Shown here: piece by piece, positions 31,322 to 57,081 of the stretch
How the letters are laid out: each line of letters opens with the position of its first letter
How positions within the stretch are numbered: the stretch's first letter is position 1
From: Candidatus Methanoperedenaceae archaeon GB37
GTDB lineage: Archaea; Halobacteriota; Methanosarcinia; Methanosarcinales; EX4572-44
Direction: 5' to 3'
Assembly: GCA_905171695.1 (NCBI GenBank)
Contig: LR991653.1
Location: 1,658,150-1,722,149, forward strand
DNA length: 64,000 nt
Made by a program: the position numbers and the translations under genes
Notes under the pieces: model-generated
What the model was told of the DNA's origin: nothing
The model's input: the letters and a program-made list of their open reading frames with translations, nothing else
Database searches by the model: none

Positions 31322-31787
31322 GGACGTGTCCACTTAACATAGACGCCACCTCAACCGATTATAATAAAGCATAAAGAGCTTACAGAACAAATTCCAGTTT
31401 TCAACAGGATTAAAAGAGCTAATTGAGCAGAAAAATATCTTTATTCTCTGTTTTAGTGTTGCATGAAATCTTTTGGGTGGATTTCATGCGAGTTTCAGAT
31501 TTCCAATCTGAAACAAGGAGCTCTGATACAAGCAGGCAATCTCTCTTCAAACATTCCCTCTTTCCAAAGAGAGGGTTTTAGAGACCGGATGAAGCTCAGA
31601 GAGAGAATTCTGGCAGTCCTCCTGAGCCGAGAGAAGACATCTGAATATAGGTTACAATACCGAAAATTTTAACCTCAAAAGGCGCCTTATTCCTCTCAAA
31701 CACCCTTAACTCTTCGACAATCCCACCTTACCATCAGCATAAATAAAAAATAGTCTCTTGTATTTATAATTTTATGTGGACGGGTCC
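31322..31787 (-). mobile_element. MITE copy 3 (inverted, internally deleted)
   Basis: Ends GGACGTGTCCACTTAAC ... TTATGTGGACGGGTCC. Collinear with the reverse complement of copy 1 except for a roughly 105-bp internal deletion. Confidence 0.8.
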
Positions 31788-37127: not shown

Positions 37128-37697
37128 GGACGTGTCCACATAAAATTATAAATACGGGAGATTATCTTTTATTTATGCTGAGGGTAAGGTGGGATTGTTG
37201 AAGAGTTGAGGGTGTTTGAGAGGAATGAGGTGCCTTTTCTATGTTGAGATTCTCGGTATTGTAACCTGTATTCAGACGTCTTCTCTCGGGAAGACTGCCA
37301 GAATTCTCTCTCTGGCTTCATCCGGTCTCCATAGACCTCTCTTTGGAAGAGGGATGGTTGGAGAGAGATTGCCTGCTTGCATCGGAGAAGAAGAGAATAT
37401 ACCTGATAGCATTAGACGAAAGAGCTGTTAAAGCAAATAAAAAGGCGTACTATGTCTATTCTGCTCTTTCGGAGAGAGAGGTTTGGTTGAATCAGTATTC
37501 TCCTTGTTTCAGATTGAAAATCTGAAACTCGCATGAAATCCACCCAAAAAATTTCATGCAACACTAAAACAGAGAATTAAGATATTCTTCCATTCGATCA
37601 ACTGCCCAGATCCAACCAAAAACTGGAACCTATTCTGCAAACTGTTCACATTATACTATTACCAGTTGAGGTGGCGTCTATGTTTAATGGACGCGTC
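37128..37697 (+). mobile_element. MITE copy 2 (570 bp)
   Basis: Ends GGACGTGTCCACATAA ... TTAATGGACGCGTC, flanked by TA on both sides. Lies 50 bp from the IS630 pseudogene start. Confidence 0.8.
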
Positions 37698-37763: not shown

Positions 37764-38327
37764 ATGGTTTTGAAGTGTGTTGCAGTGGTTGTATTTCTGC
37801 TTGTGTCGTGTGGTTGTGTTGGTATGGAGTCGGATCATGCTCGGGATCGGGAAGGTGATATGATGAATGAGATCAGTGTATCTTCAGACGCGTTCGAGGA
37901 TGATGGGATGATACCTGCTGAGTATACCTGTGATGGTGAGAATGTCTCTCCACAGATCTCGTGGACTGGTATTCCCGCTGGTTCGAAGAGCATTGTTCTG
38001 ATCGTGGACGATCCTGACGCCCCGGGGGGTACGTTCACTCATTGGGTGGTCTATAATATACCTCCTGATGTGGTGGAGCTTCCTCGGGGCGTTGAGAGGC
38101 AAGGTGCTCTTCCCAGTGGGTGTGTGCGGGGTGTGACCGATTTTGGATCGATCGGGTATGGGGGTCCATGTCCACCTCCTGGAAAGCCGCATCGGTACCA
38201 CTTCAAGGTCTACGCACTTGATGAGAAGCTATCCCTTGGTGGTGGTAGCACGAAGGATGAGGTGGAGGCTGCTATGGAGGGGCACGTCCTTGCAATGGGC
38301 GAGCTTGTTGGGCGCTATGGGCGATGA
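37764..38327 (+). CDS. PEBP/YbhB-family protein with lipoprotein-like signal
   Basis: 187 aa with DDPDAPGGTFTHWVVYNIP and GYGGPCPPPG..HRYHF. N-terminal hydrophobic segment ends in SCGC. Confidence 0.85.
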   Translation: MVLKCVAVVVFLLVSCGCVGMESDHARDREGDMMNEISVSSDAFEDDGMIPAEYTCDGENVSPQISWTGIPAGSKSIVLIVDDPDAPGGTFTHWVVYNIPPDVVELPRGVERQGALPSGCVRGVTDFGSIGYGGPCPPPGKPHRYHFKVYALDEKLSLGGGSTKDEVEAAMEGHVLAMGELVGRYGR

Positions 38328-38564
38328 AGCATCAATGTCAAAGAAAACCACTATTTTTTCTGATTCGTCAACCTTATAGATTATTCGGTACTTTCCAACT
38401 CTCTTTTTCCAATATTCTTTTAAATCTCCTTTTAGGTTTAGTCCTGAATAAGGTTCGTCTAAAATTTCCTCAATGGCTTTTATGACTCGTTCCTTCATAT
38501 CTATATCGAGTTTCTTCCCTTCTTTAAGAAAAGTTCTCAAAAAACGTGCGCGGTACATCTTCAC
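38229..38564 (-). CDS. RelE/ParE-family toxin with aberrant C-terminus
   Basis: RelE pattern GKYRIIYKVDESEKIVVFFDI. The expected GHR..Y tail is then replaced by read-through antisense to the PEBP gene. Confidence 0.55.
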   Translation of the reverse strand: MKMYRARFLRTFLKEGKKLDIDMKERVIKAIEEILDEPYSGLNLKGDLKEYWKKRVGKYRIIYKVDESEKIVVFFDIDASSPIAPNKLAHCKDVPLHSSLHLILRATTTKG

Positions 38565-38764
38565 CTTAATAACGCTTCTATTTTTTCTGGCTCGGAATCT
38601 ACGTAATCACCGCTTTTTAGCTCTTCCTCTCCCTTCTTTAATCTTTTCAATGTCGCCTCGTCCAAGAGCACTTCCAGTGTTTTAAGAATCTGATCTATCT
38701 TCTCATGCGCTTCATAGATCTCCTCGAGCATCTTTTTTGGTATCTGGATCGTATCCGTCTCCAT
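38561..38764 (-). CDS. putative antitoxin of the adjacent RelE-like gene
   Basis: Small acidic ORF (METDTIQIPKK...) overlapping the toxin start by 4 nt. Confidence 0.4.
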   Translation of the reverse strand: METDTIQIPKKMLEEIYEAHEKIDQILKTLEVLLDEATLKRLKKGEEELKSGDYVDSEPEKIEALLR

Positions 38765-39156
38765 GATAGCAAATATAGATTCAGAGGATATAAAAAGTTT
38801 CGCTATGAAGCGTAAAGCACGCCTCATCCACCCATGTACAACCTTCGATTGGACTTGAGCACCTCAGAGAGGTGCTCCTTTTGCGATTGCCTATCAAAGG
38901 CATCTTCGGTCGAACGGTTCAGCCGAAGGTTCAGCCGAAGGCTGAATAGCCCTATCGGTAGGTGGGCTTTTTGCAGGGTGGGCTTTTGGAAAAGCCTGCA
39001 GGGAGTGGAGTTGTGGCTGGTGGGGTTGGGGTGAAGATGCTTCAGCGGTAGTAGATCTCGCTTCCGCCGTTGGTGTAGATTTTCAGAACGATGAAAAGGA
39101 AGAGGCAAAAAGGTATAAGTAGAGAGGCATCGACTTTAGTTGGTTGTGGTGATAAA

Positions 39157-39426
39157 ATGAGGAGCATTTTTACCGCGTTGATCCGGGAGGAGGTAGAAGG
39201 TGGATACTCGGTGCTGTGCCCGGAGCTGGGAGTGGTGAGCCAGGGTGAAACTATAGAAGAAGTGAAGGAGAATATAGTCGAGGCGGTTGAGCTGTATCTT
39301 GAGTCTGCAAAGGATCTCGGAATTCTGGAGGAAATTCTGGAGGAGGCTGGTGTCGATCTCAAAACCGCCAGAGATACGATCGTATTGAGCGAGTACATCA
39401 CCACGCCCCTGCAGGCGAGCCTATAA
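39157..39426 (+). CDS. hicB: HicB-family antitoxin
   Basis: YSVLCPELGVVSQGETIEEVKENIVEAVELYLE is UPF0150/HicB-like. ATG at 39157. Confidence 0.8.
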   Translation: MRSIFTALIREEVEGGYSVLCPELGVVSQGETIEEVKENIVEAVELYLESAKDLGILEEILEEAGVDLKTARDTIVLSEYITTPLQASL

Positions 39427-45959: not shown

Positions 45960-47144
45960 TTACACACTCTTATACAACTCTTCCAGCTTTCGTACATGCT
46001 CGTCCATATCATACTTCTTCACAGATTCAAAAGCACCTTCTTCCAATCTCTTTAACTCTGATGGATGTTCTATCAAGTTCTCAAGTATCCCTTTCAATTC
46101 TTCCACATTTCCAGTTTCGAATAAAAACCCATTGTAGCCTTCCTCAATCAATTCTGGAATACCCCCCATGCTACTCCCTATAACGGGAGTTCCATTCGTC
46201 AAACTTTCATAAATTACCATAGGTGAATTATCATACCAAATGGATGGAACAACTGAGACATTTGCTTTTCGATACAAAGTTATAAGTTCTTCGTCTGGCA
46301 CAAATCCATAAAAATCTATCCTTTGATCAGACGCCGCCATCCTCTTGAATTCGTCCTCATCTCTCCCTTTTCCAATGATGTGAAGTCTAATATTTACAGA
46401 TCCTATTTCTTTGAAAGCACTTATCAATATATGAACGCCTTTATGTCTACTCAAACCACCCACATACAGAACATCGATCATATCATAATCTTTTTCAGCT
46501 TTCTTATCCCACAATTCAATACCCAACGGAAGTTTCATCGTTTTAACACCTTCAAACAGTCCCGTTTCTTTCAATTTACCGATTACAAACTGCGAAGGTG
46601 CAGTAATAACATCCGGTTTGTTATTCACCAGATATTTTTGAATTTTTACATAAACTTTGCACAATCTCGACGGAACGGTACATATCTCACCAGAACCATT
46701 CAACAGATTTGCTCTTGAGCATATCAATGAGTAATCATGTGCCGTGAAGACTAACGGTAGATTCAAACGCTTTGCTGCGCTGAATACAGAGAGTGAGAGC
46801 CCCTTGAAGTTATTAACATGCACAACATCTGGCATCTCCTTCTTCAGAATATTTTTAACAACAACATAAGAATGTGGATTCCATAAATCAATGGTGTGCC
46901 AGATCGGTTTTAGCATTTCTGGCTGGTTCTGATGGTTATACATCGCATAAAGGTTCAATGGGTTGATCCGATAGACCTTTACCCCGTTCACTTCTTCGAT
47001 TGATCCTTTTCCATTCACAGATGTGGTAATAACAAATACTTCATGTCCTCTTTTTACCAGTCCGTCTGCTGCTCTCTTCACGCTAATCTCTGCACCGCCT
47101 ATTACGGATGGCGGATAGAGATTGGATATGAAACAGATTTTCAT
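45960..47144 (-). CDS. glycosyltransferase family 4
   Basis: 394 aa. GT-B fold with N-terminal GGAE and C-terminal E..PMVIYESL..G.PVIGS. Confidence 0.85.
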   Translation of the reverse strand: MKICFISNLYPPSVIGGAEISVKRAADGLVKRGHEVFVITTSVNGKGSIEEVNGVKVYRINPLNLYAMYNHQNQPEMLKPIWHTIDLWNPHSYVVVKNILKKEMPDVVHVNNFKGLSLSVFSAAKRLNLPLVFTAHDYSLICSRANLLNGSGEICTVPSRLCKVYVKIQKYLVNNKPDVITAPSQFVIGKLKETGLFEGVKTMKLPLGIELWDKKAEKDYDMIDVLYVGGLSRHKGVHILISAFKEIGSVNIRLHIIGKGRDEDEFKRMAASDQRIDFYGFVPDEELITLYRKANVSVVPSIWYDNSPMVIYESLTNGTPVIGSSMGGIPELIEEGYNGFLFETGNVEELKGILENLIEHPSELKRLEEGAFESVKKYDMDEHVRKLEELYKSV

Positions 47145-48298
47145 ATCAAATCCTCGTAAACCCTCTCAGTCATCTCAGCAACTCTCTCCCAGGTATATTT
47201 CTCTTCCACAAGCCTTCTCCCATTCGCACCCATCTTCTCTGCTAAATCTTCATCGTTTAATAACTTAATTATCGCACTCGCCAGCGCCTCTGGATTTTTC
47301 GGTGGAACCAACAAACCATTCGCTCCATCTTCTATCACATATTGGATACCCCCCACCTTTGTTCCTATCACTGGTTTTCCGCATGCATTTCCTTCAATCA
47401 GCACCATACCAAAACCTTCTTGAACCGTAGTTGAAGGTAAAACGACCACATCAGAACTCTTGTAGTATTCAATCAATTCAGTTTCATCAACAAAACCGGT
47501 GAATATCACGTTATCAAAAATATTAAACTCTTCACACATTTTCTTATATTCTGAGATCATATCACCTCTGCCCACTAAGACTAGGTATGCACCCTCCACC
47601 TCTTCTAAAACTATTTTGAATGATTTAATTAATTGATCGACCCCTTTATGTGTATGTGCCTTACTCATTACGCCAACAAAAAGAACAATTTTTGAAGAAT
47701 CTGGGATGTCGTATGCCTCATGAATTTTAAATGATTTACCGACACTATATTTTTCAATATCAACTCCGGGTGGAATCCATACGAGTTTATTCGTAAACGG
47801 TTTCAGGAACTTGGATTCATTATAACAAAAAGGAGATGGAGTTATTAGCAGGTTCATTGAGCGCAGAGCCACATGGTTCATCGAATAATTATAAATCTGT
47901 GCTACAGAACTCATTAATAATCCGTCTTTAACGATATCGTTATGATATGTCAAAACAGATGGAATCTTGCATATTTTACTCACTAATGCCGCAATATCGG
48001 GATAATATGGTAAATGGAAATTTATATCTATTAAATCGAAGTCGCCATTCCGCACAAAATTAATCATATCAAAAAGCAGTCCAATTTTTATAGGTGCAGT
48101 AGATATCGTAAAGTCTGGTTTTAGTCTTATTATTCGAATACCATCTATACTTTCCTCCTTTTTTCTCTTTTCTTGACCACTACACAACACTGTGACACTG
48201 TGCCCCCCATCTACAAGCCTTTTCGCAATATTGTAAGCATAGCTTTCAGCTCCGCCACCGTCTGGATAAAAGTATGAAGAAACCATAAAAATATTCAA
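47141..48298 (-). CDS. glycosyltransferase family 4
   Basis: 385 aa. GGGAES N-terminus and EGFGMVLIEGNACGKPVIGT motif. 4-nt overlap with the next GT4. Confidence 0.85.
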   Translation of the reverse strand: MNIFMVSSYFYPDGGGAESYAYNIAKRLVDGGHSVTVLCSGQEKRKKEESIDGIRIIRLKPDFTISTAPIKIGLLFDMINFVRNGDFDLIDINFHLPYYPDIAALVSKICKIPSVLTYHNDIVKDGLLMSSVAQIYNYSMNHVALRSMNLLITPSPFCYNESKFLKPFTNKLVWIPPGVDIEKYSVGKSFKIHEAYDIPDSSKIVLFVGVMSKAHTHKGVDQLIKSFKIVLEEVEGAYLVLVGRGDMISEYKKMCEEFNIFDNVIFTGFVDETELIEYYKSSDVVVLPSTTVQEGFGMVLIEGNACGKPVIGTKVGGIQYVIEDGANGLLVPPKNPEALASAIIKLLNDEDLAEKMGANGRRLVEEKYTWERVAEMTERVYEDLI

Positions 48299-48387
48299 CG
48301 CAACACACCCTGTTTATCAAAGTGATCTCTGTATGGGAAATGGGTGATGAAATAGCTTATTTTCATGCTATTACTCCTTTAGAGACG

Positions 48388-49121
48388 TTACATTTGCTTT
48401 TTTGCTGTTATTAATAGACTTCCACCAAATAAATTGACTAACTGAAGCCTCTCTAAATAGGGTTCTATTCTCTTCACAAGTTTCCAAATTCCATTCCCAT
48501 TTGCAGGTGTAAAGTTTATTCCACCTCTCTTAAGAATAACAAATCCTGCATCATCTAATTTACTATGTATATATATATATATATATATCCTAATGAATGT
48601 TCATTGTGGCTATATCCATATTTCTTCTTTGGAAATCTATGTCTGAAGCTTGTATATGGATTCCAATCATTTGGTTCTATGATGAATAAAAAACCACCCT
48701 CTTTCAAAACCCTATTTATTTCTAAAACCGGATATATTATATCTGGAAAGTGATGTAACACCTGTCCACACAACACTGCATCAAACGAACTATCTTTAAA
48801 AGGCAAACTCAATCCATCCCCACAAATATAACCGCATGTTTCATCAAGATATTTAGCAATCTTCACGTTGGTGAAAGTAACATCCAACCCAATGACATTT
48901 TTAAATGATTTTCGTAGATAAGGCGTATATGTTGCTGTTCCACATCCAAAATCTAAAACAGATGTTTTATCGATCTCCAATACACCCAATTTTTCAAGTG
49001 CTTTTAGCTTTCTTTCTTCATCCCAATCACTGCTGCGATATTCATACCCTAATTTTCCAAATCTCTGTTTATATAAAACAATCTCCTCTTCCGCATTCTG
49101 TTTTTTGTTCATATTATGCAC
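48388..49121 (-). pseudogene. class I SAM methyltransferase split by a frameshift in a (TA)10 tract
   Basis: The N-part is ORF 48555..49121 (VLDFGCGT). The C-part HSKLDDAGFVILKRGG...LLITAKKQM ends at 48388 in the -1 frame. The two frames meet inside the TA run. Confidence 0.7.
48568..48588. repeat. (TA)10 microsatellite
   Basis: Read directly: TATATATATATATATATATAT. Confidence 0.98.
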
Positions 49122-49150
49122 ACCGTTTCGTTCTTTACCTTTGCACCCCT

Positions 49151-49270
49151 TTATATATTATTTTCCATGCTTATGCAAAGATCTGATTTTGAAAATATTC
49201 TTTTAAGCAGGTCAATTCTATCTATTTTGGCAAAAGTGCTTGCAATATCGCAGTCAATGATAACGAGCAT
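49151..49270 (-). pseudogene. PIN-like (DUF3368) toxin, truncated to 39 codons
   Basis: MLVIIDCDIASTFAKIDRIDLLKRIF parallels MIIIDTDIASAFAKAGHFDMLIKLF of the 156-aa copy at 51669..52139. Same TGAATG junction with the upstream UPF0175 gene. Confidence 0.6.
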
Positions 49271-49564
49271 TCAATCACCAGTCGCCCTATATATTCTCCT
49301 CTCGCTCTCTTCCTTTGATCCCCTGACCTCTATTCTGAAGCCCCTGCTCCGGAGTATCTCCTTAAATTCTTCCACAGTCGTCCCAGCCATATCCGCTGCT
49401 TTCCAGAGGCTCACCTCTTTGTTTCTGTAAAGCTCTACAGCCATCTCTACCTTTAACCCGGGCTTCAAATTTAAAAGTGCCCTGTATGCATCTTCAATGA
49501 GATTATCCACACTTCCGCAATATTTCGGCACCAGAGCCTTTGGAAGGTTCTCTGCTAAATACAT
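49271..49564 (-). CDS. UPF0175-family antitoxin
   Basis: 97 aa. Paralogue of 52140..52427 (LIEDAYRALLNLKPGLKVEMAVELY). Confidence 0.7.
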   Translation of the reverse strand: MYLAENLPKALVPKYCGSVDNLIEDAYRALLNLKPGLKVEMAVELYRNKEVSLWKAADMAGTTVEEFKEILRSRGFRIEVRGSKEESERRIYRATGD

Positions 49565-49584
49565 ATTTGTATGTTATACCTCCC

Positions 49585-49712
49585 CACCCTATAAACTGTT
49601 GCTCGCTTCTTGCACATCTCAATAACATCCGCTCCAAACACCACACCCACCTCATCTCACCGACCCCACACCTCCTCAGCACCACCTCGCAGCAAGTGGA
49701 ACATATCTCGGA
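49585..49712 (-). pseudogene. degenerate 3'-end fragment D of the B12-radical-SAM gene
   Basis: Retains CCTCGCAGCAAGTGGAACATATCTC versus CCTCACAGCAAGTGGAACATATCCC in the intact gene (52580-52604). The reading frame is destroyed. Confidence 0.35.
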
Positions 49713-49842
49713 GATAGATATAGATAATAAACAACTGTTGGGATTGGCCCCTTTCCTGCCAGCGCTTTTTCTCCGGGCGTTCCGTAGTCGTCGAATATAT
49801 GCAGTATCTTCATTTTTTCTTCCCCTGATAAACCTCTAGAAA

Positions 49843-50243
49843 CTACTCTATTTTTCCGATAAATGCATAAAAATCTGGTAAATTCTCTTTCAGTATTTCA
49901 AAAGCGATCCTGTCATCTATCCTGCCATATCTGTGAACGACTATGTTTTTAAATCCTTTCATCGCCTTCAATTTCTCTCTCATCTCTTCGCTCAATATCT
50001 TCTTCTTTACCGATTTTCTATAATATCTTTATCATCATGTGGGATTCCGAGTTCAAGGTCTGTGTTGATGATGGCGCAGATGTCAAGGACATTTTCTATG
50101 GCAAACTCTATCCTTTTGTAGATTCCATCTTTTATCAATCCAAGATCTGAGAATTCCTCAAATGTATCTGGTAAATGCTCTTCTACCAATCTGATACTCT
50201 CCTCTATCTACTTCATCTTTGTTCTGATAATCTTTTTTCTCAT
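49843..50243 (-). pseudogene. HEPN (DUF86) toxin, disrupted
   Basis: ATG overlaps the MNT stop (ATGA). There is an in-frame TAG after 11 codons and a frameshift before KGFKNIVVHRYG (the Rx4-6H-like HEPN motif). Confidence 0.65.
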
Positions 50244-50653
50244 GTAATCTCTCTTTCTCCGATATAATCATAAAATTTGTGTTTAAATGCTTCAAAATCT
50301 TTTATTGTCTCGATAGCCGCTTCGTATAAAAACTGCTTATCTTTGCAGTAGATAATTTTTCCCTTCAAAACTTCCACTCGTACATAAATGGGGAGTTGCT
50401 GAAAGATTTGAACGTCAAAAGTATCATCAAAGAGCTCTGAAAGAACTTTGAACCTGAATTTTGATGATTCATCTGGGCTGCCATCATGGTATATACAGAG
50501 GTCTATGTCTGAACCCCCGGTCATCTGCCCCTCTGCTGCTGATCCATAGAGAATGATGAATTTTACCTTTTCAAATCCCTCTACATTCTTAATTTTCTCA
50601 ATTGTCTTCTCTATTTTTGTCTTCGTTATCGTGGTCCCTGCATCCATCTCTTT
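50240..50653 (-). CDS. MNT-type nucleotidyltransferase antitoxin
   Basis: ILYGSAAEGQMTGGSDIDL nucleotidyltransferase motif. ATG at 50653 within tracked ORF 50240..50668. Confidence 0.8.
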   Translation of the reverse strand, partial: KEMDAGTTITKTKIEKTIEKIKNVEGFEKVKFIILYGSAAEGQMTGGSDIDLCIYHDGSPDESSKFRFKVLSELFDDTFDVQIFQQLPIYVRVEVLKGKIIYCKDKQFLYEAAIETIKDFEAFKHKFYDYIGEREIT

Positions 50654-50664
50654 CATCGCCCCTC

Positions 50665-50817
50665 TCACCTATTTGCAATATATCCCATAAACACCCTCGT
50701 CGACTTAATCATCCCCTTCAACTCATGTAACCCCCTCCCTAGAATATCCCTCATCGCTACCGGTATATATGAAGGACTCAAATGATATTCTTTCAACCTC
50801 CGATCCACATAATTCAT
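50665..50817 (-). pseudogene. 3'-end fragment C of a B12-radical-SAM paralogue
   Basis: YIPVAMRDILGRGLHELKGMIKSTRVFMGYIANR aligns with the C-terminus YVPLAVRQVLRRHSLDEMKRLWHSARMFMGYIGGRGE of 52487..53947. Confidence 0.5.
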
Positions 50818-50821
50818 CCAA

Positions 50822-51124
50822 TTACTCCTTTCGTTCTTCTTCAAATGAGAAGAGCATGAGTTTATATATCTCCTCTCTGTGTCCAAAAGCAACCAGTATC
50901 ACCTCGCTTTCGTTCTCATCCACCATATAAATAAGTCTATATTTCCCCTTTATTCTGAGAGATCTGTAATGAGAGAGTCGGTATTTCAGCGGTTTTCCGG
51001 AATACGGTACATCCTGTAGTTTCTTCACTTTCTTCGCTAACTCTTCCATCAATGCTTTGTCTTTCTTCTTCACCCTCTCAATCTGTTTCTTGAAGATTCT
51101 GGTGTACTTCAGACCGTATACCAC
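50822..51124 (-). CDS. RelE/ParE-family toxin
   Basis: 100 aa with GKPLKYRLSHYRSLRIKGKYRLIYMVDENESEVILVAFGHREEIY. Confidence 0.75.
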   Translation of the reverse strand: MVYGLKYTRIFKKQIERVKKKDKALMEELAKKVKKLQDVPYSGKPLKYRLSHYRSLRIKGKYRLIYMVDENESEVILVAFGHREEIYKLMLFSFEEERKE

Positions 51125-51128
51125 AAGA

Positions 51129-51353
51129 TCACTCCAGAAACAAATTATTTAAATCCTCTTCCGATTTGATTACGAAAGTATTCCCTTCTCTAATATCTTT
51201 CTCACTTTCCTTTATCTGTTCCATCAAATCCTTATCGCTTAAGATCTCTATGGTCTCCATCAAAGATTCCATTTCCCCAATCAGGCTTTCAAAGTCCTCT
51301 TTGCGTAGCACTATGTTTCCCTTGACTTCTTTTATTCTCACAACACTTACCAT
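51129..51353 (-). CDS. putative antitoxin of the adjacent RelE/ParE gene
   Basis: 74 aa and acidic, 4 nt upstream of the toxin. Paralogue of 56384..56605 (EILSDKDLMEQIKESEKDIREG). Confidence 0.5.
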   Translation of the reverse strand: MVSVVRIKEVKGNIVLRKEDFESLIGEMESLMETIEILSDKDLMEQIKESEKDIREGNTFVIKSEEDLNNLFLE

Positions 51354-51419
51354 TGTATCACCTCTACTTTATGGAAGATTGAATGGATACTATGTCTTGC
51401 TGTACATATCATAAAGTTG

Positions 51420-51668
51420 TCACCCCCTCCGCCTCATATACCCCATGAACATCCTCGCCGAATGCCATAGCCTCTTCATCTCGTCCAGGCTATGCCGCCT
51501 CAAAACCTGCCTCACAGCAAGTGGAACATATCCCAGGGACATACAACACCCCTCAAGCACCCAACCAGCCAGTTCAGTCATCTCTTCAACCGTTAGCCGC
51601 GAATAAGAGGTTACAGCCTTCTGATGCACCTGTTCAACCATTGGTTGAATGCTTTCTGACAGATACAT
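51420..51668 (-). pseudogene. 3'-end fragment B of the B12-radical-SAM gene
   Basis: The last 82 codons of a paralogue. 51436-51535 is 100/100 identical to 52506-52605 of the intact gene. Confidence 0.85.
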
Positions 51669-52139
51669 TTACAGTTCCACCCTCGATAATAAGCGGTTAT
51701 CCGCGGTTTCAATATCCTTTATAATCTTCAAAACTTCTTCTTTTGTTGCAATGTTTTTTACTATTAGTCCTTTAAAAATAACTCCTGCTGTGATGATATT
51801 CACTCCAAGCTCCTTTGCTGTTGAGATGGCTCTTTTATCAAAAGACGAGAATGAATGCTCTCTTCTCAAACAAACAACGATGCTTTCTGTCTCGCCCTTT
51901 TCAATTTCAGCGTGTTCACCTCTGAGTTTCAAATATTCTCTTTGCTCGTCATCTGAAACAGTCACCAGTTCTGTCTTTTCAAAGATCTCCCTGGGGTATT
52001 CGTGGCCGTGTTCTAAAGGAGTTAAGAGTTCTTCGTAAACTCTTGGAGTTATCCCGACCACCCCAAAAAGCTTTATCAACATGTCAAAGTGACCTGCCTT
52101 GGCGAATGCACTGGCAATATCGGTATCAATTATGATCAT
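51669..52139 (-). CDS. PIN-like (DUF3368) toxin
   Basis: 156 aa with N-terminal IIIDTD acidic motif. Immediately follows the UPF0175 gene. Confidence 0.75.
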   Translation of the reverse strand: MIIIDTDIASAFAKAGHFDMLIKLFGVVGITPRVYEELLTPLEHGHEYPREIFEKTELVTVSDDEQREYLKLRGEHAEIEKGETESIVVCLRREHSFSSFDKRAISTAKELGVNIITAGVIFKGLIVKNIATKEEVLKIIKDIETADNRLLSRVEL

Positions 52140-52427
52140 TCAAATCAGGCTCAATCCCCTCTCAATTTCATCTTTTGAGCCTATATAACTGCTCACTTTC
52201 AATCCTCTCGCTTTCAAGATCTCCTTAAAGCTTTCCAGATCCATGCCTGAAATCTCCGCCGCTCTCAAAAGTGATACTTCCTCTCGCAGATAAAGCTCCA
52301 TCGCCATTTCCACCTTCAACTCAGGTTTCAAATTCAAAAGTGCTCTAAATGCATCCTCAATGAGACTGTTCACATTTTTGTAACATCTTGGCACCAAAAC
52401 TTTTGAGAGGTTCTCTGTCGGATACAT
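52140..52427 (-). CDS. UPF0175-family antitoxin
   Basis: 95 aa. Paralogue of 49271..49564. Confidence 0.75.
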   Translation of the reverse strand: MYPTENLSKVLVPRCYKNVNSLIEDAFRALLNLKPELKVEMAMELYLREEVSLLRAAEISGMDLESFKEILKARGLKVSSYIGSKDEIERGLSLI

Positions 52428-52486
52428 ATTCTATTTTCTCCTTTATTATCCTATAAATATATTCACTAATTTGTTATGAAATATTT

Positions 52487-53947
52487 TCATTCCCCTCTCC
52501 CTCCTATATACCCCATGAACATCCTCGCCGAATGCCATAGCCTCTTCATCTCGTCCAGGCTATGCCGCCTCAAAACCTGCCTCACAGCAAGTGGAACATA
52601 TCCCAATGACATATAATAATCCTTCAACATCTTATCCACCTCTTTCACCATCTCCTCTGAAGACAGGTTCGGATAAGAGATAATCGCCTTCTGATGCCCC
52701 TCTTCATCTAAATACTCATTCGGGTCGTCCGTGAGCAAATACCCATTTTCTCTGCACCATTCGTAAAGTTCTGTTCCGGGAAATGGAGACGAAACAGAAA
52801 CTTGGACCTGCTCAGGCTTTATCTCTTTTATAAATCTCCTCGTCTTCTCTATCGTCTCCTTAGTCTCCCCAGGCAAGCCTATTATAAAATCCGCATGTAA
52901 CAGCAGTCCGGCTTTTTTGACATTTCTTGCAAATTCCTCTGTCTGCCCGGTTGTAAAACCCTTCTTTATCTTTTTAAGTATTTCGTCGTCTCCCGATTCA
53001 AAACCGACAATCAGAAATCGACAGTTTGCCCGTCTCATCTCCTCCATCGTTTCAAGATCGAGAGTATCTGCCCTCGCATTGCACGACCAGGTTATCTCCA
53101 AACCTGTCTCTCTATAACCCTTGCAAAACTCAAGAACCCTTCTCTTATCTATCGTGAGGGTATCATCCTCAAAGAAGACCTCTTTCACCTCTGGCAGATT
53201 CGCCTCGATCCATTCAAGCTCATTCAGGATGTTTTCAACTCTCCTGACCCTGTACTTTCGTCCCATGAAGGACTGGGGCCACGAGCAAAAGGTGCATCTG
53301 TGAGGACATCCTCTTCCTGTAAAGACCTGGACCATTGGATAGAGCGAATAGTTAAGGAAATAATCGCGAATATTCAGGTGCCTTTTGTACACCTCAGACA
53401 CAAACGGCAGTCCGTCCAGTTCACCTGACGTAGACCATGGTCTGTTTGGATTGTGAATAACCTTGCCATTCTGTTTGAATGATATTCCGGAAATATCACC
53501 AATGCGTCCATTCCTTTCCATTCTCTCTGCCAGTTCAGCCAGAGTAAAATCATATTCATATCTCGCAACTATGTCCACGCCACCGTCCAGCATTTTTTCC
53601 GGGAATTGGGATGTTGGCGGACCCACCATAATAACCGGCACATCAGCATCAAGTTCGTTTTTTATTTTTTTGGACACGTCCAGATCGTTGTTCACACTTG
53701 TGAAACTTGTTCCAACAACCACCATATCCGGACTAAATTTTCTTAAATCCTCCATGACTTTCTCGATGCCCCAATCCCATGCAGGTGCATCGACAAGCCT
53801 GACATCATGCCCCTTATTTTCAAGTACCCCTGTAGCATAAGATAACCAGATTGGGTAGTAGAGTGTGCCGCCTCTTCCCGTATCCTGCCATCTCATCTCC
53901 CTGCCAAAGTGAGGAAAGTACGGCGGGTTTAAGAGGTAAATTCTCAT
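52487..53947 (-). CDS. B12-binding-domain radical SAM enzyme (class B)
   Basis: 486 aa. N-terminal cobalamin-binding-like domain, GRGCPHRCTFCSWP (CX3CX2C). Confidence 0.85.
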   Translation of the reverse strand: MRIYLLNPPYFPHFGREMRWQDTGRGGTLYYPIWLSYATGVLENKGHDVRLVDAPAWDWGIEKVMEDLRKFSPDMVVVGTSFTSVNNDLDVSKKIKNELDADVPVIMVGPPTSQFPEKMLDGGVDIVARYEYDFTLAELAERMERNGRIGDISGISFKQNGKVIHNPNRPWSTSGELDGLPFVSEVYKRHLNIRDYFLNYSLYPMVQVFTGRGCPHRCTFCSWPQSFMGRKYRVRRVENILNELEWIEANLPEVKEVFFEDDTLTIDKRRVLEFCKGYRETGLEITWSCNARADTLDLETMEEMRRANCRFLIVGFESGDDEILKKIKKGFTTGQTEEFARNVKKAGLLLHADFIIGLPGETKETIEKTRRFIKEIKPEQVQVSVSSPFPGTELYEWCRENGYLLTDDPNEYLDEEGHQKAIISYPNLSSEEMVKEVDKMLKDYYMSLGYVPLAVRQVLRRHSLDEMKRLWHSARMFMGYIGGRGE

Positions 53948-54924
53948 ACGTTAACCTCCTTCACGGGCTTAAACACTCCCCTTATAAAACCGAGCCCCCA
54001 TCCCCAGAACCAGATTGCGATGAGTGCGTAGTATCTCAAAAAATCTCTCATGCCCGTTTTAGAGCCAAGATACAAACTCATTGCGCCGATCCCTATTCCG
54101 CCAATGATCAATATCGAGAGTGCCCCCCATAGGTACACCATATTCGATAGTGAGAGGATGGATAAAAAAAATATTGCGGATATGATCAGAGACGGCGTGT
54201 AATGAAACCATCTCCCCATATCTCTATGCAGCTTTATTGCCTGCATCCGCCCAATTCCATAATTCCATGCCATCTTCATGAATCTTCCCCAGGTTGGTCT
54301 CCTGTAGTGATAAACAACAGCATCCGGCGTATATAAAATTCTGTATCCATTTTCTCTTATCCGATAGTCCAGTTCCTCATCATCTACGGTAACAAGGCTG
54401 TGATTGAATCCTCCTACCTCCTCCAATACGCTTTTTCTATACATCACATTACAGGTAGGGTTATGGTATATCTCTCTGACTTCTTCCTCACAAAATCCAT
54501 ACCTTGCCCCGGGTTTGCTCAAAAAAGATAATATCACACCCACGCATTTTGCGAATGCGCTGTCATCTTCAGGTGTTATATTCGGACCACCCACTGCTGC
54601 AACATCATCCTTGAAATGCTTTATAAGCTCTTTAATCCAGCCTCTATCAACCACGCAGTCAGCGTCCGTAAACGCTATAAATTTGCCTTTTGCCTGCCTC
54701 ACACCAATCTCTCTTGCATAGCTTATTGTTCCTTTATCTTCAAAGATTACTTTACATCCATATTTTTCAGCAATCCCCACCGTATCATCCGCAGAATGTC
54801 CATCCACAATTATCACTTCCAGCCTATCTTCTGGACATTCCAGATTCTGAATAGAAAATAGACATTTTTCGAGTATACCACCGTTGTTTTTTGTTGGGAT
54901 AACAATGGAAATAATATCGTTCAT
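53944..54924 (-). CDS. glycosyltransferase family 2 with C-terminal membrane segments
   Basis: MNDIISIVIPTKNN...IIVDGHSADDT...FTDADC. ATG at 54924 preferred within tracked ORF 53944..54945. Confidence 0.85.
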   Translation of the reverse strand: MNDIISIVIPTKNNGGILEKCLFSIQNLECPEDRLEVIIVDGHSADDTVGIAEKYGCKVIFEDKGTISYAREIGVRQAKGKFIAFTDADCVVDRGWIKELIKHFKDDVAAVGGPNITPEDDSAFAKCVGVILSFLSKPGARYGFCEEEVREIYHNPTCNVMYRKSVLEEVGGFNHSLVTVDDEELDYRIRENGYRILYTPDAVVYHYRRPTWGRFMKMAWNYGIGRMQAIKLHRDMGRWFHYTPSLIISAIFFLSILSLSNMVYLWGALSILIIGGIGIGAMSLYLGSKTGMRDFLRYYALIAIWFWGWGLGFIRGVFKPVKEVNV

Positions 54925-54925
54925 G

Positions 54926-55078
54926 TCACCTATCTCTCTCACCATCCCACCATTTCAACCCGTACCAGTGAACCTCGTGCCCCCGTTCAGCGAGTCGCTT
55001 CGAGATCTCATAGATTCGCTTCTCTGCACCGCTTTTTATCCATGGATAGACGGCATCGTAGATGTATGCGAGTTTCAT
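54926..55078 (-). pseudogene. GT4 glycosyltransferase 5'-end fragment 1 (50 codons)
   Basis: [50 protein letters not shown] then stop. 132/139 nt identical to fragment 2 by manual alignment. Confidence 0.7.
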
Positions 55079-55092
55079 CTTTTGCTCAACTC

Positions 55093-55364
55093 TTATTGTT
55101 TATATGCTTCATCATGGTGTGCAAACTCCAGAAGGATCACCCTGTGCTCTTCTTCATCTATTCTGTAAAATTAAGCACAAAATGCCCGATATGAACCCTC
55201 CTTTTACCTTTAAGCAATCCACGAAGAGGTTTGCCGAGGTACGGATTCTCTGCGATTTGAGCCATTTTCTTCTGCACTGCTGCGTACAACTTTTTGTTTC
55301 TTTTTGCCAATCTCTTTAACCTGGAAACCAGCTCTTCGTCAATATCCTGGCTGTAACTATTCAT
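55093..55364 (-). pseudogene. RelE/ParE-family toxin with frameshift
   Basis: ORF 55158..55364 ends ...VHIGHFVLNFTE. The conserved tail [24 protein letters not shown] continues in the +1 frame to 55093. Confidence 0.65.
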
Positions 55365-55620
55365 CTTTCAAGCTCTCTAAAAACTCATTTAGCTCCTTTG
55401 CATCTTTGAAAGACCTGGTTTTCCCTTCTTTCACTCTTTTCTCCGCCTCTTTCACACGTTCTATAAATTCATCCGTGAACATCTCTTCCGGCGGGTAGAA
55501 CTGTTCTTCAAGCGTATCTATGATACCCCTCACTATTTTGTATCTTATCCTTTCCTCTATTATCGGAGCAAGCTTATCCACAAGTTCTTCTTCATCAATC
55601 CCGCCCATCTTTTTCACCAT
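55357..55620 (-). CDS. putative antitoxin of the frameshifted RelE gene
   Basis: 87 aa and acidic. Overlaps the toxin start by 8 nt. Confidence 0.4.
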   Translation of the reverse strand: MVKKMGGIDEEELVDKLAPIIEERIRYKIVRGIIDTLEEQFYPPEEMFTDEFIERVKEAEKRVKEGKTRSFKDAKELNEFLESLKDE

Positions 55621-55643
55621 TACTAAGCTTTACTTTTTTCATC

Positions 55644-55979
55644 TTATAAATCTTCATGCATCCATGCAGAAAAACATGAAAACTCCTGAGAATCTATGAT
55701 ATCAAAATCCCCCCTGAGTCCAGTCAGCGTCTTGAATCCGAAATACAAACCTTCTCCTATAGATCTTTTCCCATCAACATAGAGATTATTCCACTTTCCA
55801 ATTCCGTGAAGATGAACACCATCCATCATGATGTCTCGTTCACCATCCCACCACTTCAACCCGTACCAGTGAGCCTCGTGCCCCCGTTCAGCGAGTCGCT
55901 TCGAGATCTCATAAATTCGCTTCTCTGCACCTCCTTTTATCCATGGGTAGATGGCATCGTAGATGTATGCGAGTTTCAT
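55644..55979 (-). pseudogene. GT4 glycosyltransferase 5'-end fragment 2 (111 codons)
   Basis: [54 protein letters not shown]... This is a GT4 N-terminal domain only. Confidence 0.8.
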
Positions 55980-56131
55980 GTTATCTTATCTTTTCTATCT
56001 CACTATATTTTTTAAGTGATTCCTCATTTTATTCCACCCTGACATGCTCAAATATAAATCCATCAACACCATCTATTGCCACTATAACCACTCCTTCTCC
56101 CTCATTCAGATCACCCACTTACCATCGCACA

Positions 56132-56380
56132 TCACCTGTAAACGTCGTTCCTGTACTCAAATGCATACGCCCTTATCACATCCCCATCGATCGCATAGAG
56201 ACGTCTGTACTTTCCGATTCTTATCGATCTGAATCCCTTGAGCGAGTATCTGAGTGGTTTTCCAGTGTCCGGATCTTTCAACAGATTTTTAAGCTCTTTT
56301 CTAACTCTGTCTAGCACAGTTTCATCCTTTATTTTCTTTATCTGATTTTTAAACTTCTCAGAGAGTTCTATTTGAGGCAT
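56132..56380 (-). CDS. RelE/ParE-family toxin
   Basis: 82 aa with GKPLRYSLKGFRSIRIGKYRRLYAIDGDVIRAYAFEYRNDVY. Confidence 0.75.
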   Translation of the reverse strand: MPQIELSEKFKNQIKKIKDETVLDRVRKELKNLLKDPDTGKPLRYSLKGFRSIRIGKYRRLYAIDGDVIRAYAFEYRNDVYR

Positions 56381-56383
56381 GAT

Positions 56384-56605
56384 TCATTCTTTCTCTAAAT
56401 CATTGAAGAAATCATCGATATCCTTCTCTGTTTTGAGTGTGTAATACCTCCCCTCTTTAAAATCTCTCGCACTCTCTTCTATATCTCTTATGAGGTCTTC
56501 GTCACTCAGGATCTCGAGCTCCTCCACCAGGTCTCCGATCTCCTCCTGGATCTGTGTGAGTCTTGTTATTATGCCTCTTGCAATCGGGGATTCAACCATC
56601 TGCAT
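56384..56605 (-). CDS. putative antitoxin of the adjacent RelE/ParE gene
   Basis: 73 aa and acidic, 3 nt upstream of the toxin. Paralogue of 51129..51353. Confidence 0.5.
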   Translation of the reverse strand: MQMVESPIARGIITRLTQIQEEIGDLVEELEILSDEDLIRDIEESARDFKEGRYYTLKTEKDIDDFFNDLEKE

Positions 56606-56705
56606 CTTCTTGACCTCCTCACTTTCTTTATCTTTATTTAAGTATTAAAAGATTGCCTTGAGATTTTACAAAATCTTCTTGATCTTCTTTATATCGGCAA
56701 CCAGC

Positions 56706-56879
56706 TCAACTCTCTCCTTTTTCCATCTCCTCTGCTATGGATATTATTTCCTCAAGTTCTCCATCACTCACTTCTTCCTCTGGGATAAGCGCATACCCTA
56801 TCACAGATACTTCCTTTCTCAACTCCTTTAGCTCCTCATAGACCTTTTCCATGGACACACCCATATAATAATCACTCAT
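56706..56879 (-). CDS. small acidic ORF (57 aa), orphan antitoxin-like
   Basis: Not in the track because it is under 60 aa. MSDYYMGVSMEKVYEELKELRKEVSVIGYALIPEEEVSDGELEEII..., with no partner toxin. Confidence 0.2.
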   Translation of the reverse strand: MSDYYMGVSMEKVYEELKELRKEVSVIGYALIPEEEVSDGELEEIISIAEEMEKGES

Positions 56880-56933
56880 TTTATATTTTTACTTCAATCA
56901 TGTATTAATAATTGCGTCTTATCGACCTCCTCT

Positions 56934-57005
56934 CATCAACATAGAGATCGTCCCATTCTCCGATCCCCCGCACAATATCCCGTTCACCATCCCACCACTT
57001 CGACC
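56934..57005 (-). pseudogene. GT4 glycosyltransferase internal fragment 3
   Basis: CATCAACATAGAGAT...GTTCACCATCCCACCACTTCGACC is collinear with 55782-55863 of fragment 2 and has an internal deletion. The 5' end is missing. Confidence 0.4.
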
Positions 57006-57081
57006 TGCTTTCGGTGGCGATAGATCTCTTCCAGACCTTTGATCTGGATTTGAGTAAGCAACGAGAGAGAGTTTGTGCAGC

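What the first reader, a model, noticed from the sequence alone, without database searches (positions are those of the whole stretch)
49585..52605. Serial accretion of toxin-antitoxin cassettes at the 3' end of a B12-radical-SAM gene, with a 100-bp perfect att-like direct repeat
Reading the - strand downstream of the intact radical SAM gene (stop at 52487), cassettes and gene fragments alternate:
- UPF0175+PIN cassette (52427-51669)
- fragment B, the last 82 codons of a radical SAM paralogue (51668-51420)
- RelE/ParE cassette (51353-50822)
- fragment C (50817-50665)
- MNT+HEPN cassette (50653-49843)
- fragment D (about 49712-49585, frame destroyed)
- UPF0175 plus truncated PIN (49564-49151)
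The terminal block 52506-52605 of the intact gene is identical base for base to 51436-51535 in fragment B (offset 1070 bp). Immediately upstream of that block the two copies are still homologous but clearly diverged (HQKAIISYPNLSSEEMVKEVDKMLKDYYMSLGY versus HQKAVTSYSRLTVEEMTELAGWVLEGCCMSLGY). This is the attL/attR-type footprint expected if a small unit carrying [gene 3' end + TA cassette] recombines into the gene's 3' end. Such an event would restore the ORF and displace the old end. Successive events would stack up and older copies would decay (B identical in the core, C recognisable at protein level, D only a 25-nt remnant). The gene end would then behave like an integron attI or a tRNA integration hot spot, yet no integrase is present in the window. 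I am not aware of a described system of this kind that targets a protein-coding 3' end with TA-only cargo.
Basis: partly seen in the sequence, partly recalled or inferred. Interest (0 to 1): 0.8.

Follow-up and report, generated by a model that had tools for sequence, protein, structure and literature searches.

The report
TA cassette array with gene-end repeats
Behind a cell-surface sugar-pathway gene of an ethane-oxidising archaeon, small toxin-antitoxin gene pairs have piled up, each separated by a leftover copy of that gene's tail; relatives show the pairs are swapped between lineages, most likely by ordinary homologous recombination rather than a dedicated integration enzyme, which leaves a readable footprint of how these selfish modules spread without mobility genes.

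Summary
There is a 100-nt exact direct repeat (52506-52605 = 51436-51535). Four copies of the radical-SAM 3' end (A intact, then B, C, D) alternate with four toxin-antitoxin (TA) cassettes.

Relatives show the array is polymorphic:
- Most have an empty site.
- About ten independent contigs carry arrays with other cassettes or other orders.
- Cassette blocks are 96-98% identical between lineages whose rSAM genes are only 86% identical.

The fragments are chimeras. Each cassette stays linked to the fragment downstream of it. Fragment start points vary (rSAM residues ~335-451) and junctions fall at different places in the repeat. A 9-nt microhomology joint and a stub of a foreign downstream gene are embedded in the array.

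The same architecture occurs with a GT4 5' fragment just upstream in this window, and with an ABC-ATPase 5' fragment in an ANME-1 MAG. I found no integrase, no attC-like fold and no viral attP.

Best reading: [gene end + TA] units integrate by single-crossover ("pop-in") homologous recombination and persist because they are addictive. This is a new variant of known kinds (TA islets, tandem accretion).

The parts
52487..53947 (-). Intact B12-binding radical SAM gene (486 aa); copy A of the repeated 3' end is its last ~70 codons
   Evidence: Pfam PF02310 + PF04055. Orthologues at 61-99% aa identity in 30+ loci.
52506..52605 (-). 100-nt core, copy A (identical to 51436-51535)
   Evidence: Base-by-base comparison at offset 1070.
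51669..52427 (-). Cassette 1: UPF0175 antitoxin-like gene (52427-52140) + DUF3368/PIN-like toxin gene (52139-51669); both intact; the youngest unit
   Evidence: PF03683. PF11848 precomputed for the E50 orthologue and homologues. Present in E50, L002 and L013; absent between the A-type fragment and ATb-ParEb in L046.
51420..51668 (-). Fragment B: a chimera. The 'up' part (51645-51536) is 84% identical to the decayed D-lineage and 61% to A. The core (51535-51436) is 100% identical to A. It has its own tail.
   Evidence: Alignments and identity matrices.
50822..51353 (-). Cassette 2: antitoxin (51353-51129) + ParE/RelE toxin (51124-50822)
   Evidence: PF05016. The same block (tail + spacer + genes) is 97-98% identical in L015, L046, L051 and L052, and 84% identical in L053.
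50665..50817 (-). Fragment C (rSAM residues 437-486). It starts right after the ParE stop codon and belongs to a foreign fragment lineage shared with L051 and L053.
   Evidence: tblastn. Same start point after the ParE homologue in L053. Core is 78% identical to L051 but 63% to A.
49843..50668 (-). Cassette 3: MNT nucleotidyltransferase (50668-50240) + HepT/HEPN toxin (50189-49843; frameshifted in this strain)
   Evidence: PF18765/PF01909 and PF01934 in two pieces. One-base deletion at ~50012 relative to E50 and L013.
49725..49842 (-). Remnant of an rSAM stop region plus codons 1-31 of a different GT4 gene (MKILHIFDDYGTPGE...), imported with cassettes 2-3 from an L052-type locus
   Evidence: 85% identical to the rSAM-stop/GT4' start junction of L043 and L044. 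In L052 the intact GT4' follows HepT. The joint to fragment D is a TATTATCTA microhomology.
49585..49724 (-). Fragment D: a 'YLSPRYVPLA' piece of A/L044 type joined within TTGCTG|CGAGG to a decayed D-lineage core
   Evidence: Alignments. From 49695 onward it is 96.5% identical to L010, L014 and L015.
49151..49564 (-). Cassette 4: UPF0175 (49564-49271) + PIN truncated at codon 39 (49270-49151); the oldest unit
   Evidence: PF03683. Intact 167-aa DUF3368 partner, followed by a further rSAM fragment, in L010 and L015.
53944..54945 (-). GT2 glycosyltransferase, conserved partner gene upstream of rSAM; lies between the two arrays
   Evidence: Pfam in the gene table. Synteny in most relatives.
54926..57010 (-). 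Second array of the same architecture. GT4 5' fragments: F1 (~57010-56900, decayed), F2 (55979-55644), F3 (55078-54926; 94% identical to F2 over 146 nt). They alternate with antitoxin + ParE-type pairs at 56605-56132 and 55620-55158.
   Evidence: (D2). A comparable array with 4-5 GT4 5' copies is in L004.

Best explanation
This is a TA-only islet that grows by insertion-duplication.

The mobile unit is a piece of DNA that carries the last 45-430 nt of the rSAM gene, followed by a TA pair. It could be a circle or an 'ends-in' linear fragment. The unit is first made by an illegitimate joint between the far side of a TA cassette and a point inside the rSAM 3' region.

The unit then pairs with the resident rSAM 3' end, or with any fragment copy already in the array. 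A single homologous crossover ('pop-in') integrates it. The gene stays intact, and the TA pair ends up bracketed by two direct copies of the gene end.

Repeats of this process, en-bloc imports, short-homology deletions and decay produce the stack. The direct repeats should make such inserts unstable through pop-out. Only addictive cargo would then be retained, which would explain the TA-only content.

What is shown: the anatomy, the polymorphism, the chimeric fragments, cassette sharing between lineages, and generality across host genes. What is inferred: the circular or ends-in intermediate, dependence on the host recombination machinery, and retention by addiction.
For: 1. Empty sites. In L003/L018, L004, L005, L006, L016, L020, L025, L027 and L031-L040, rSAM is followed directly by ordinary genes.

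2. Arrays with other content or order occur in L010, L014, L015, L043, L046, L047, L051, L052 and L053.

3. Cassette blocks are more conserved than the host genes. L015 against the window gives 98.2% for ATb-ParEb and 96.6% for UPF0175d, but 86.4% for rSAM and 75.7% for GT2. L053 gives 84% against 72%.

4. Each cassette keeps the fragment downstream of it:
- ParEb stop | residue 437 in the window, L052, L051 and L053.
- E4 PIN | residue ~340 in L010, L015 and L047.
The upstream copy varies. Four different core types precede the same tail + ATb-ParEb. This is what a contiguous [x..stop - spacer - TA] unit crossing over anywhere in its homology would give.

5. Fragment start points are variable and sometimes cut toxin genes. 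They fall at residues ~340, 373 (inside HicA in L046), ~408 (after DUF433 in L015), 415, 418, 437 and 451.

6. The chimeras are quantified. Fragment B is 84% (up) and 70% (core) identical to the D-lineage, against 61% and 100% to A. L015 fragment 3 is 99% (up) to L047 and 98% (core) to A/B, but 87% to its own gene.

7. A stub of a foreign downstream gene and a 9-nt microhomology joint are embedded in the array.

8. The same architecture occurs with unrelated repeats: GT4 5' fragments in the window and L004, and ~500-nt ABC-ATPase 5' copies in the ANME-1 contig L057.

9. All cargo checked is TA-type.

10. There is no recombinase domain in the window or in the annotated array loci, no attC-like fold, and no viral copy.

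11. Each strain has 0-2 private mutations in the core of fragment B, matching the ~1% background. The perfect 100 nt therefore needs only recency.
Against: - No circular or excised form has been observed.
- The tightest junctions (fragment D, L015 fragment 3) are all compatible with a single crossover region, TTGCTGTGAGG. A site-specific event followed by gene conversion is therefore not excluded.
- The rest of the genome could not be searched for a trans-acting recombinase.
- In L053 all three copies are host-type in core and tail. This needs later conversion or a de novo duplication of the resident end.
- Most comparators are short-read metagenome contigs. Repeats could in principle produce chimeric joins, although the junction sequences are each distinct.
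- Recombination proficiency, DNA uptake and toxicity of these TA pairs are untested in this uncultured archaeon.
Confidence: 0.55

Rival explanations
1. Site-specific accretion. A tyrosine or serine recombinase encoded elsewhere in the genome recognises a core inside the rSAM 3' end. It integrates integrase-less mini-elements that carry a replacement gene end plus a TA pair, as with cis-mobilisable elements or integron cassettes.
For: - Empty and occupied sites exist among relatives, and the ORF is restored after insertion.
- Three informative junctions are compatible with a crossover in TTGCTGTGAGG, at the left edge of the 100-nt block.
- Cassettes appear in different orders in different lineages.
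Against: - No recombinase in the 64-kb window or in the annotated array loci.
- The sequences flanking the 'core' inside the units are homologous to the host gene over variable lengths.
- Units with the same cassette have different cores upstream, so the common edge there lies near the stop codon, not at the left core edge.
- The same architecture occurs with two unrelated repeated sequences.
- No attC-like structure and no attP on viral contigs.
Confidence: 0.15
2. In-situ segmental duplication plus cassette swapping. Unequal sister-chromosome exchange in a polyploid cell tandemly duplicates [rSAM 3' part + TA]. Afterwards, cassettes lying between two fragment copies are replaced by ordinary double-crossover recombination with DNA from other strains. 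No single-crossover integration of a free unit is needed.
For: - The illegitimate y|x joints needed are the same as in the best explanation.
- Once two fragment copies exist, double crossover explains exchange, mosaicism and en-bloc import.
- Two zero-divergence tracts next to a polymorphic cassette block between the window and E50 show active recombination in the locus.
- In L053 all copies are host-type.
Against: - No array shows two adjacent copies of the same cassette, which is the immediate product of a tandem duplication.
- Every distinct cassette has its own fragment start point. Each would therefore need its own duplication in some donor, followed by transfer. That converges on the best explanation.
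Confidence: 0.2
3. Long target-site duplication. An unknown insertion machinery makes widely staggered cuts in the target gene end and fills them in, so that both copies derive from the resident gene.
For: L053 (all copies host-type, 82-86% identical to each other) and L057 (three 88-94% identical copies) look like duplicates of the resident sequence.
Against: - Duplicated lengths vary from ~95 to >500 nt.
- In the window, fragments B, C and D are not derived from the resident gene. The 'up' part of B is 61% identical to A but 84% to another lineage, and C is 63% to A but 78% to L051.
- No transposase is present.
Confidence: 0.05

Closest known systems
Sedentary chromosomal integrons with TA cassettes (IntI/attI/attC)
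   Same: A one-directional array of small cassettes separated by a repeated element. TA modules are prominent cargo and are thought to stabilise the array. Cassettes are shuffled and shared between lineages. (Integron literature, e.g. PMC12614218 and 10.1101/2022.08.03.502626, listed.)
   Different: There is no IntI and no attC hairpin. The inter-cassette repeat is a 45-430-nt piece of the neighbouring host gene. The junction position is not fixed. Other host-gene fragments play the same role elsewhere.
Tandem accretion of integrase-mediated integrative elements at a gene 3' end, including integrase-less cis-mobilisable derivatives (own knowledge of tRNA/protein-gene islands and CIMEs)
   Same: The element brings a replacement 3' end, so the target gene stays intact. 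The displaced ends remain as direct repeats between stacked elements. Empty sites exist in relatives.
   Different: The units are only 0.7-1.1 kb and carry TA genes alone. No integrase was found. The repeats are long, diverged, homologous segments with variable outer limits rather than a short identity block. The mechanism is probably homologous, not site-specific.
Bacterial 'TA islets' without mobility genes, proposed to spread by homologous recombination at flanking core genes (Belot et al. 2026, PMC13617665); also Neisseria minimal mobile elements (own knowledge)
   Same: TA-only clusters in small, high-turnover spots, with no transposase or integrase. There is presence/absence polymorphism and frequent toxin pseudogenisation (here HepT, the ParEb gene in E50, and the truncated PIN).
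   Different: Those models use double crossover in both flanking genes and leave no duplication. Here every cassette is bracketed by duplicated gene-end fragments, the footprint of single-crossover or ends-in integration. The hosts here are archaea, and the sites are surface-glycan gene clusters.
Laboratory 'pop-in/pop-out' (insertion-duplication) integration of non-replicating circles in archaeal and bacterial genetics (own knowledge)
   Same: A single crossover through one homologous segment gives direct repeats flanking the insert. If the segment includes a gene end, the gene remains intact. The repeats promote pop-out.
   Different: Here it would occur naturally and repeatedly, with TA modules as the cargo that resists pop-out. 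This is not demonstrated experimentally.

Membership tests
Integron | IntI-type tyrosine recombinase gene next to the array | tested here: not met
   No recombinase domain in the ORFs flanking the array or in 30 other large ORFs of the window.
Integron | attC site (imperfect palindrome folding as a single-strand hairpin) at the end of each cassette | tested here: not met
   ssDNA folds of the inter-cassette repeats give z = -1.6 to +0.9 and no long hairpin. No boundary inverted repeats.
Integron | Array of co-oriented mobile cassettes that vary between strains | tested here: met
   All cassettes are on the minus strand. Content and order differ in L010, L015, L046, L047, L052 and L053.
Integrase-mediated integrative element / cis-mobilisable element stacked at a gene 3' end | Cognate site-specific recombinase (in the element or in trans) | not testable with these tools
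   Absent from the window and from the annotated array loci. The rest of the genome could not be scanned.
Integrase-mediated integrative element / cis-mobilisable element stacked at a gene 3' end | One fixed crossover core shared by all junctions | tested here: not met
   The junction in fragment D lies at TTGCTG|CGAGG, the left core edge. The units carrying ATb-ParEb share only the last ~5 codons + spacer, and four different core types lie upstream of that. Caveat: later gene conversion could blur the junctions.
Integrase-mediated integrative element / cis-mobilisable element stacked at a gene 3' end | Element arms outside the identity block are unrelated to the target | tested here: not met
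   Every unit carries 45-430 nt homologous to rSAM upstream of the core, with start points varying between residues ~335 and 451.
Integrase-mediated integrative element / cis-mobilisable element stacked at a gene 3' end | Empty target site in relatives; target ORF preserved after insertion | tested here: met
   Empty sites in more than 15 loci. The rSAM gene is intact at 486 aa, against 481-484 aa in relatives.
Type II toxin-antitoxin modules | Adjacent small antitoxin and toxin genes of recognised families | tested here: met
   UPF0175 + DUF3368/PIN, antitoxin + ParE, and MNT + HepT in the window. HicB/HicA, RelB/RelE, VapB/PIN, DUF4258/DUF2283 and MNT/HEPN in related arrays.
Type II toxin-antitoxin modules | Toxin toxicity neutralised by the cognate antitoxin; addictive behaviour | not testable with these tools
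   Needs kill-rescue and stabilisation assays.
TA islet spread by recombination at flanking core genes | TA-only cluster in a variable spot between conserved genes, without mobility genes | tested here: met
TA islet spread by recombination at flanking core genes | Double-crossover insertion that leaves no duplication of the flanks | tested here: not met
   Each cassette is bracketed by duplicated gene-end fragments.

The most novel reading that the evidence does not exclude
TA modules in ANME-related archaea (Methanosarcinales and Methanophagales) propagate as a recombinase-free, self-perpetuating cassette system. [Gene end + TA] units pop out of arrays through the direct repeats, pass between cells, and pop in at any homologous gene end. 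Addiction selects against their loss. Each insertion adds a new landing pad, so surface-glycan gene clusters accumulate 'pseudo-integrons' built entirely on host recombination. The strand-biased G>A changes in the imported block would then be a footprint of a single-stranded transfer stage.
Probability: 0.35. Interest if true: 0.8.

Novelty: new variant of a known kind. Interest (0 to 1): 0.6.

Why it matters
How TA modules move between chromosomes when they carry no mobility genes is an old open question. Current models, such as Belot et al. 2026, infer recombination at flanking genes but have no footprint to point to.

These arrays preserve the footprints: duplicated gene ends, chimeric fragments, illegitimate joints, and a stub of a donor's neighbouring gene. 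The mechanism therefore becomes directly testable by looking for circle junctions, by mapping the spectrum of crossover positions, and by checking RadA dependence.

The arrays also suggest a simple reason why TA genes dominate such islets: only addictive cargo survives between direct repeats.

The location is also of interest. The arrays flank a conserved GT2-rSAM pair inside hypervariable surface-glycan clusters, in at least two orders of alkane- and methane-oxidising archaea. This bears on how those clusters are exchanged and stabilised in uncultured syntrophic archaea.

Tried and rejected
- **tblastx of the window against itself**: too noisy because of linked-HSP E-values. I used blastn and targeted tblastn instead.
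- **Scan of viral contigs with the fragment alignment**: no relative found, so no candidate attP on a virus or plasmid.
- **attC-like folding of the inter-cassette repeats**: nothing above shuffled controls.
- **Rfam scan of the whole window**: only one tRNA, far from the array.
- **Literature searches**: no description of TA arrays punctuated by host gene-end fragments.
- **Ongoing gene conversion as the reason for the perfect 100 nt:** rejected as unnecessary. The core of fragment B carries 0-2 private changes per strain, which matches the ~1% background.
- **Assembly artefact:** rejected. E50 and L013 reproduce the array.
- **Simple tandem duplication of one ancestral segment:** rejected. 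The fragments belong to different lineages and the cassettes differ.
- **Transposase-type target duplication:** rejected. The lengths are variable and the copies have foreign origin.
- **The 8-bp inverted repeat CATAGCCT...AGGCTATG inside the core:** not conserved in other core types, so I dismissed it as a recombinase site.
- **PINa family assignment:** my hmmscan gave no Pfam hit. The assignment rests on precomputed PF11848 hits for its orthologue and homologues.

Full report
**1. Observation**

The window contains an exact 100-nt direct repeat, 51436-51535 = 52506-52605, at offset 1070. It sits inside about 214 nt of homology at 80% identity (D1); the blastn self-hit has E = 1e-48.

On the minus strand an intact B12-binding radical SAM gene (53947-52487; Pfam PF02310 + PF04055) is followed by:
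- UPF0175 + a PIN-like gene (52427-51669)
- fragment B (51668-51420)
- an antitoxin + ParE (51353-50822)
- fragment C (50817-50665)
- MNT + HepT (50668-49843)
- fragment D
- UPF0175 + a truncated PIN (49564-49151)
- a methyltransferase and GT4 genes

The corrections are these:
- Cassettes 1 and 4 are homologous (59% aa), so there are three TA families, not four.
- HepT is frameshifted in this strain.
- Fragment D is about 140 nt long. It is preceded by an unnoticed stub consisting of an rSAM-tail remnant plus the first 31 codons of a different GT4 gene.

**2. Source and sister strains**

The rSAM protein is identical to that of Candidatus Ethanoperedens thermophilum E50 (GCA_905171685.1). The window DNA, however, differs from E50 by 1.1%. 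It probably comes from a sister genome with a 1,922,745-bp contig.

E50, an independent 4.2-kb metagenome contig (L013, 98.5%) and L002 all have the same array order, so it is not an assembly artefact.

The differences between the window and E50 are uneven:
- None across GT2 + rSAM (54978-52475).
- None across D...GT4x (49864-46718).
- About 60 in the cassette block, including reciprocal frameshifts. ParEb is broken in E50; HepT is broken here.

Three-way site patterns are mutually incompatible, which indicates recombination.

The A/B core identity is 100/100 here, 98/100 in E50, 99/100 in L002 and about 93% in L013. Private changes in the core of fragment B (0-2 per strain) match the ~1% background. 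The perfect repeat therefore reflects a recent event, not a conserved site.

**3. Empty and occupied sites**

I searched genome and metagenome collections with the rSAM protein and with an alignment of its C-terminal fragments, then mapped the hits with tblastn and blastn.

In more than 15 lineages (rSAM 57-79% aa identity) the gene is followed directly by ordinary genes.

Arrays occur in about ten independent contigs, with different content and order:
- **L010:** f1 | UPF0175 | RelB-RelE | f2 | UPF0175d-PIN | f3 | GT4x.
- **L014 and L015:** rSAM | DUF433 remnant | fD | UPF0175d-PIN | f3 | ATb-ParEb.
- **L046:** HicB-HicA' | A-type fragment | ATb-ParEb, with no UPF0175a-PINa cassette.
- **L047, L051, L052, L043 and L044** carry further variants.
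- **L053:** rSAM only 61% identical, with rSAM | ATb-ParEb homologue | fragment 437-484 | VapB-PIN | fragment 451-482 | GT4.

**4. Cassette blocks move between lineages**

Against L015, the ATb-ParEb block is 98.2% identical over 620 nt, including a pseudogene fragment and a spacer. The UPF0175d block is 96.6% identical. By contrast rSAM is 86.4% and GT2 is 75.7%. Against L053 the cassette block is 84% identical and rSAM is 72%. Selection on proteins cannot explain this, so the blocks were exchanged.

**5. Anatomy of the unit**

Each cassette stays attached to the fragment downstream of it.
- The ParEb stop codon is followed at once by a fragment starting at rSAM residue 437 in the window, L052, L051 and L053.
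- The PIN of the UPF0175d unit is followed by a fragment starting near residue 340 in L010, L015 and L047.

The copy upstream of a given cassette varies. The tail + spacer + ATb-ParEb is preceded by four different core types: window-A type in B and in L015 f3, L013-A type in L046, L015-A type in L052, and C type in L051.

The fragments are chimeras:
- B: 'up' is 84% identical to the D-lineage and 61% to A; core is 100% to A and 70% to the D-lineage.
- L015 f3: 'up' is 99% to L047; core is 98% to A/B but 87% to its own gene.
- C: core is 78% to L051 and 63% to A.

Fragment start points range over residues ~340, 373, ~408, 415, 418, 437 and 451. Some cut a toxin gene: HicA at codon 21 in L046, and PIN in the window.

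The window block from the core of B through ATb-ParEb, C and MNT-HepT to the GT4' stub matches L052 at 95.4%. In L052 the intact GT4' gene follows HepT. Here only 31 codons of GT4' remain. They are joined through the microhomology TATTATCTA to an rSAM 'YYLSPRYVPLA' piece, and then, within TTGCTG|CGAGG, to the decayed D-lineage core.

All of this fits a contiguous unit [rSAM x..stop - spacer - TA] closed by an illegitimate joint. Such a unit recombines anywhere along its homology with a resident copy.

**6. Generality**

Just upstream of GT2 in this window, three GT4 5' fragments alternate with ParE-type pairs. F2 and F3 are 94% identical over 146 nt.

L004 has an empty rSAM site. Upstream of its GT2 it carries 4-5 GT4 5' copies (86-98% identical) interleaved with MNT-HEPN, DUF4258-DUF2283, RelE-like and PIN remnants.

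In an ANME-1 (Methanophagales) MAG, L057, three ~500-nt copies (88-94%) of the 5' part of a Wzt-type ABC ATPase gene alternate with UPF0175-DUF3368, VapB-PIN and PIN-like pairs. The intact gene comes last.

The architecture is therefore not tied to the rSAM 3' end.

**7. Tests of site-specific models**

- No recombinase domain was found in the array flanks or in 30 other large ORFs of the window. The only mobile-element trace is an IS630-type HTH-only ORF.
- None appears in the precomputed gene tables of nine array-bearing loci.
- The inter-cassette repeats do not fold like attC sites.
- No viral contig carries the fragment.
- The tightest junctions are compatible with a crossover in TTGCTGTGAGG. 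That 11-mer is also one of the two longest identical stretches between the A-type and D-type cores. Other junctions lie near the stop codon.

A trans-acting recombinase followed by gene conversion cannot be excluded, but nothing requires it.

**8. Interpretation**

The best explanation is homology-driven insertion-duplication ('pop-in') of [gene end + TA] units, combined with illegitimate joints, en-bloc imports, short-homology deletions and decay. Inserts flanked by direct repeats should be lost by pop-out unless their loss is penalised. That would explain why about 15 distinct cassettes in about 10 arrays are all TA-type. This last step is inference.

The rivals are a site-specific system with a distant recombinase, in-situ duplication followed by double-crossover swapping, and long target-site duplication.

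**9. Relation to what is known**

The array resembles chromosomal integrons and tandemly accreted integrative elements in layout, but it fails their defining features: IntI and attC for integrons, and a fixed core with unrelated arms for integrative elements.

It fits the recently described bacterial 'TA islets' without mobility genes (PMC13617665). It adds what that model lacks: duplication footprints that indicate single-crossover integration. It also extends the phenomenon to archaeal surface-glycan clusters.

I rate it a new variant of a known kind. The interest is moderate to high because it makes the mode of TA spread testable.

**10. Caveats**

- Most comparators are short-read metagenome contigs.
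- No excised forms were observed.
- The whole genome could not be scanned.
- TA activity is unverified.

Noticed in passing
window 54926-57010 (minus strand): A second array of the same architecture. Three GT4 5' fragments (F1 decayed ~57010-56900, F2 55979-55644, F3 55078-54926) alternate with two antitoxin + ParE-type pairs (56605-56132 and 55620-55158). The full GT4 gene is gone. A single GT4 5' fragment upstream of GT2 is conserved in L003, L004 and L023.
   Followed up: partly
window 14587-15160 (+), 31323-31787 (-), 37128-37697 (+): A MITE-like family of about 565 nt with three copies at 87-95% identity. It has ~12-nt terminal inverted repeats (GGACCCGTCCAC... / ...GTGGACACGTCC). Copy 2 has a 112-nt internal deletion. 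Copy 3 abuts an IS630-type HTH-only ORF (36551-37078). No Rfam match.
   Followed up: partly
window 49864-52475: Private substitutions of the window lineage, polarised with E50 and L013, are 15 G>A against 1 C>T on the gene-sense strand (about 2:1 expected from composition; p ~ 0.01). E50 shows 5:4 and L013 shows 10:6. This could be a single-strand deamination footprint of an imported block, or a sequencing artefact.
   Followed up: partly
window 52475-54978 and 46718-49864: Two tracts with zero differences from the E50 genome bracket the highly polymorphic cassette block, against a ~1-2% background. This suggests recent recombination or a sweep of GT2-rSAM and of D...GT4x between the sister strains.
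   Followed up: no
window 55714-55788: 24 differences from E50 are clustered in 75 nt inside GT4 fragment F2. This looks like a gene-conversion tract from a divergent copy.
   Followed up: no
window 38232-38827 and 39091-39423: Further TA genes elsewhere in the window: ParE + antitoxin, and a HicB-like solo gene. No duplicated gene-end fragments are detectable around them.
   Followed up: no
L057 5713-9775 (ANME-1 MAG QENH01000163.1): Three ~500-nt direct copies of the 5' part of a Wzt-type ABC ATPase gene alternate with UPF0175-DUF3368, VapB-PIN and PIN-like pairs. Further TA remnants lie upstream, and the locus is part of a glycan cluster (a UDP-glucose dehydrogenase lies nearby).
   Followed up: partly
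L048-L050 (Logan SRR26901927/28/30): An rSAM C-terminal fragment (residues 338-484, 133-aa ORF) sits directly after a pyridine-nucleotide disulfide oxidoreductase gene in three samples. This is a fragment in an unrelated context.
   Followed up: no
window 48560-48593: A (TA)n microsatellite forms the 3' end of the methyltransferase ORF (protein ends ...GYIYIYIYIVN). The gene is called 3 aa shorter in E50 (185 aa; the window ORF is 188 aa).
   Followed up: no
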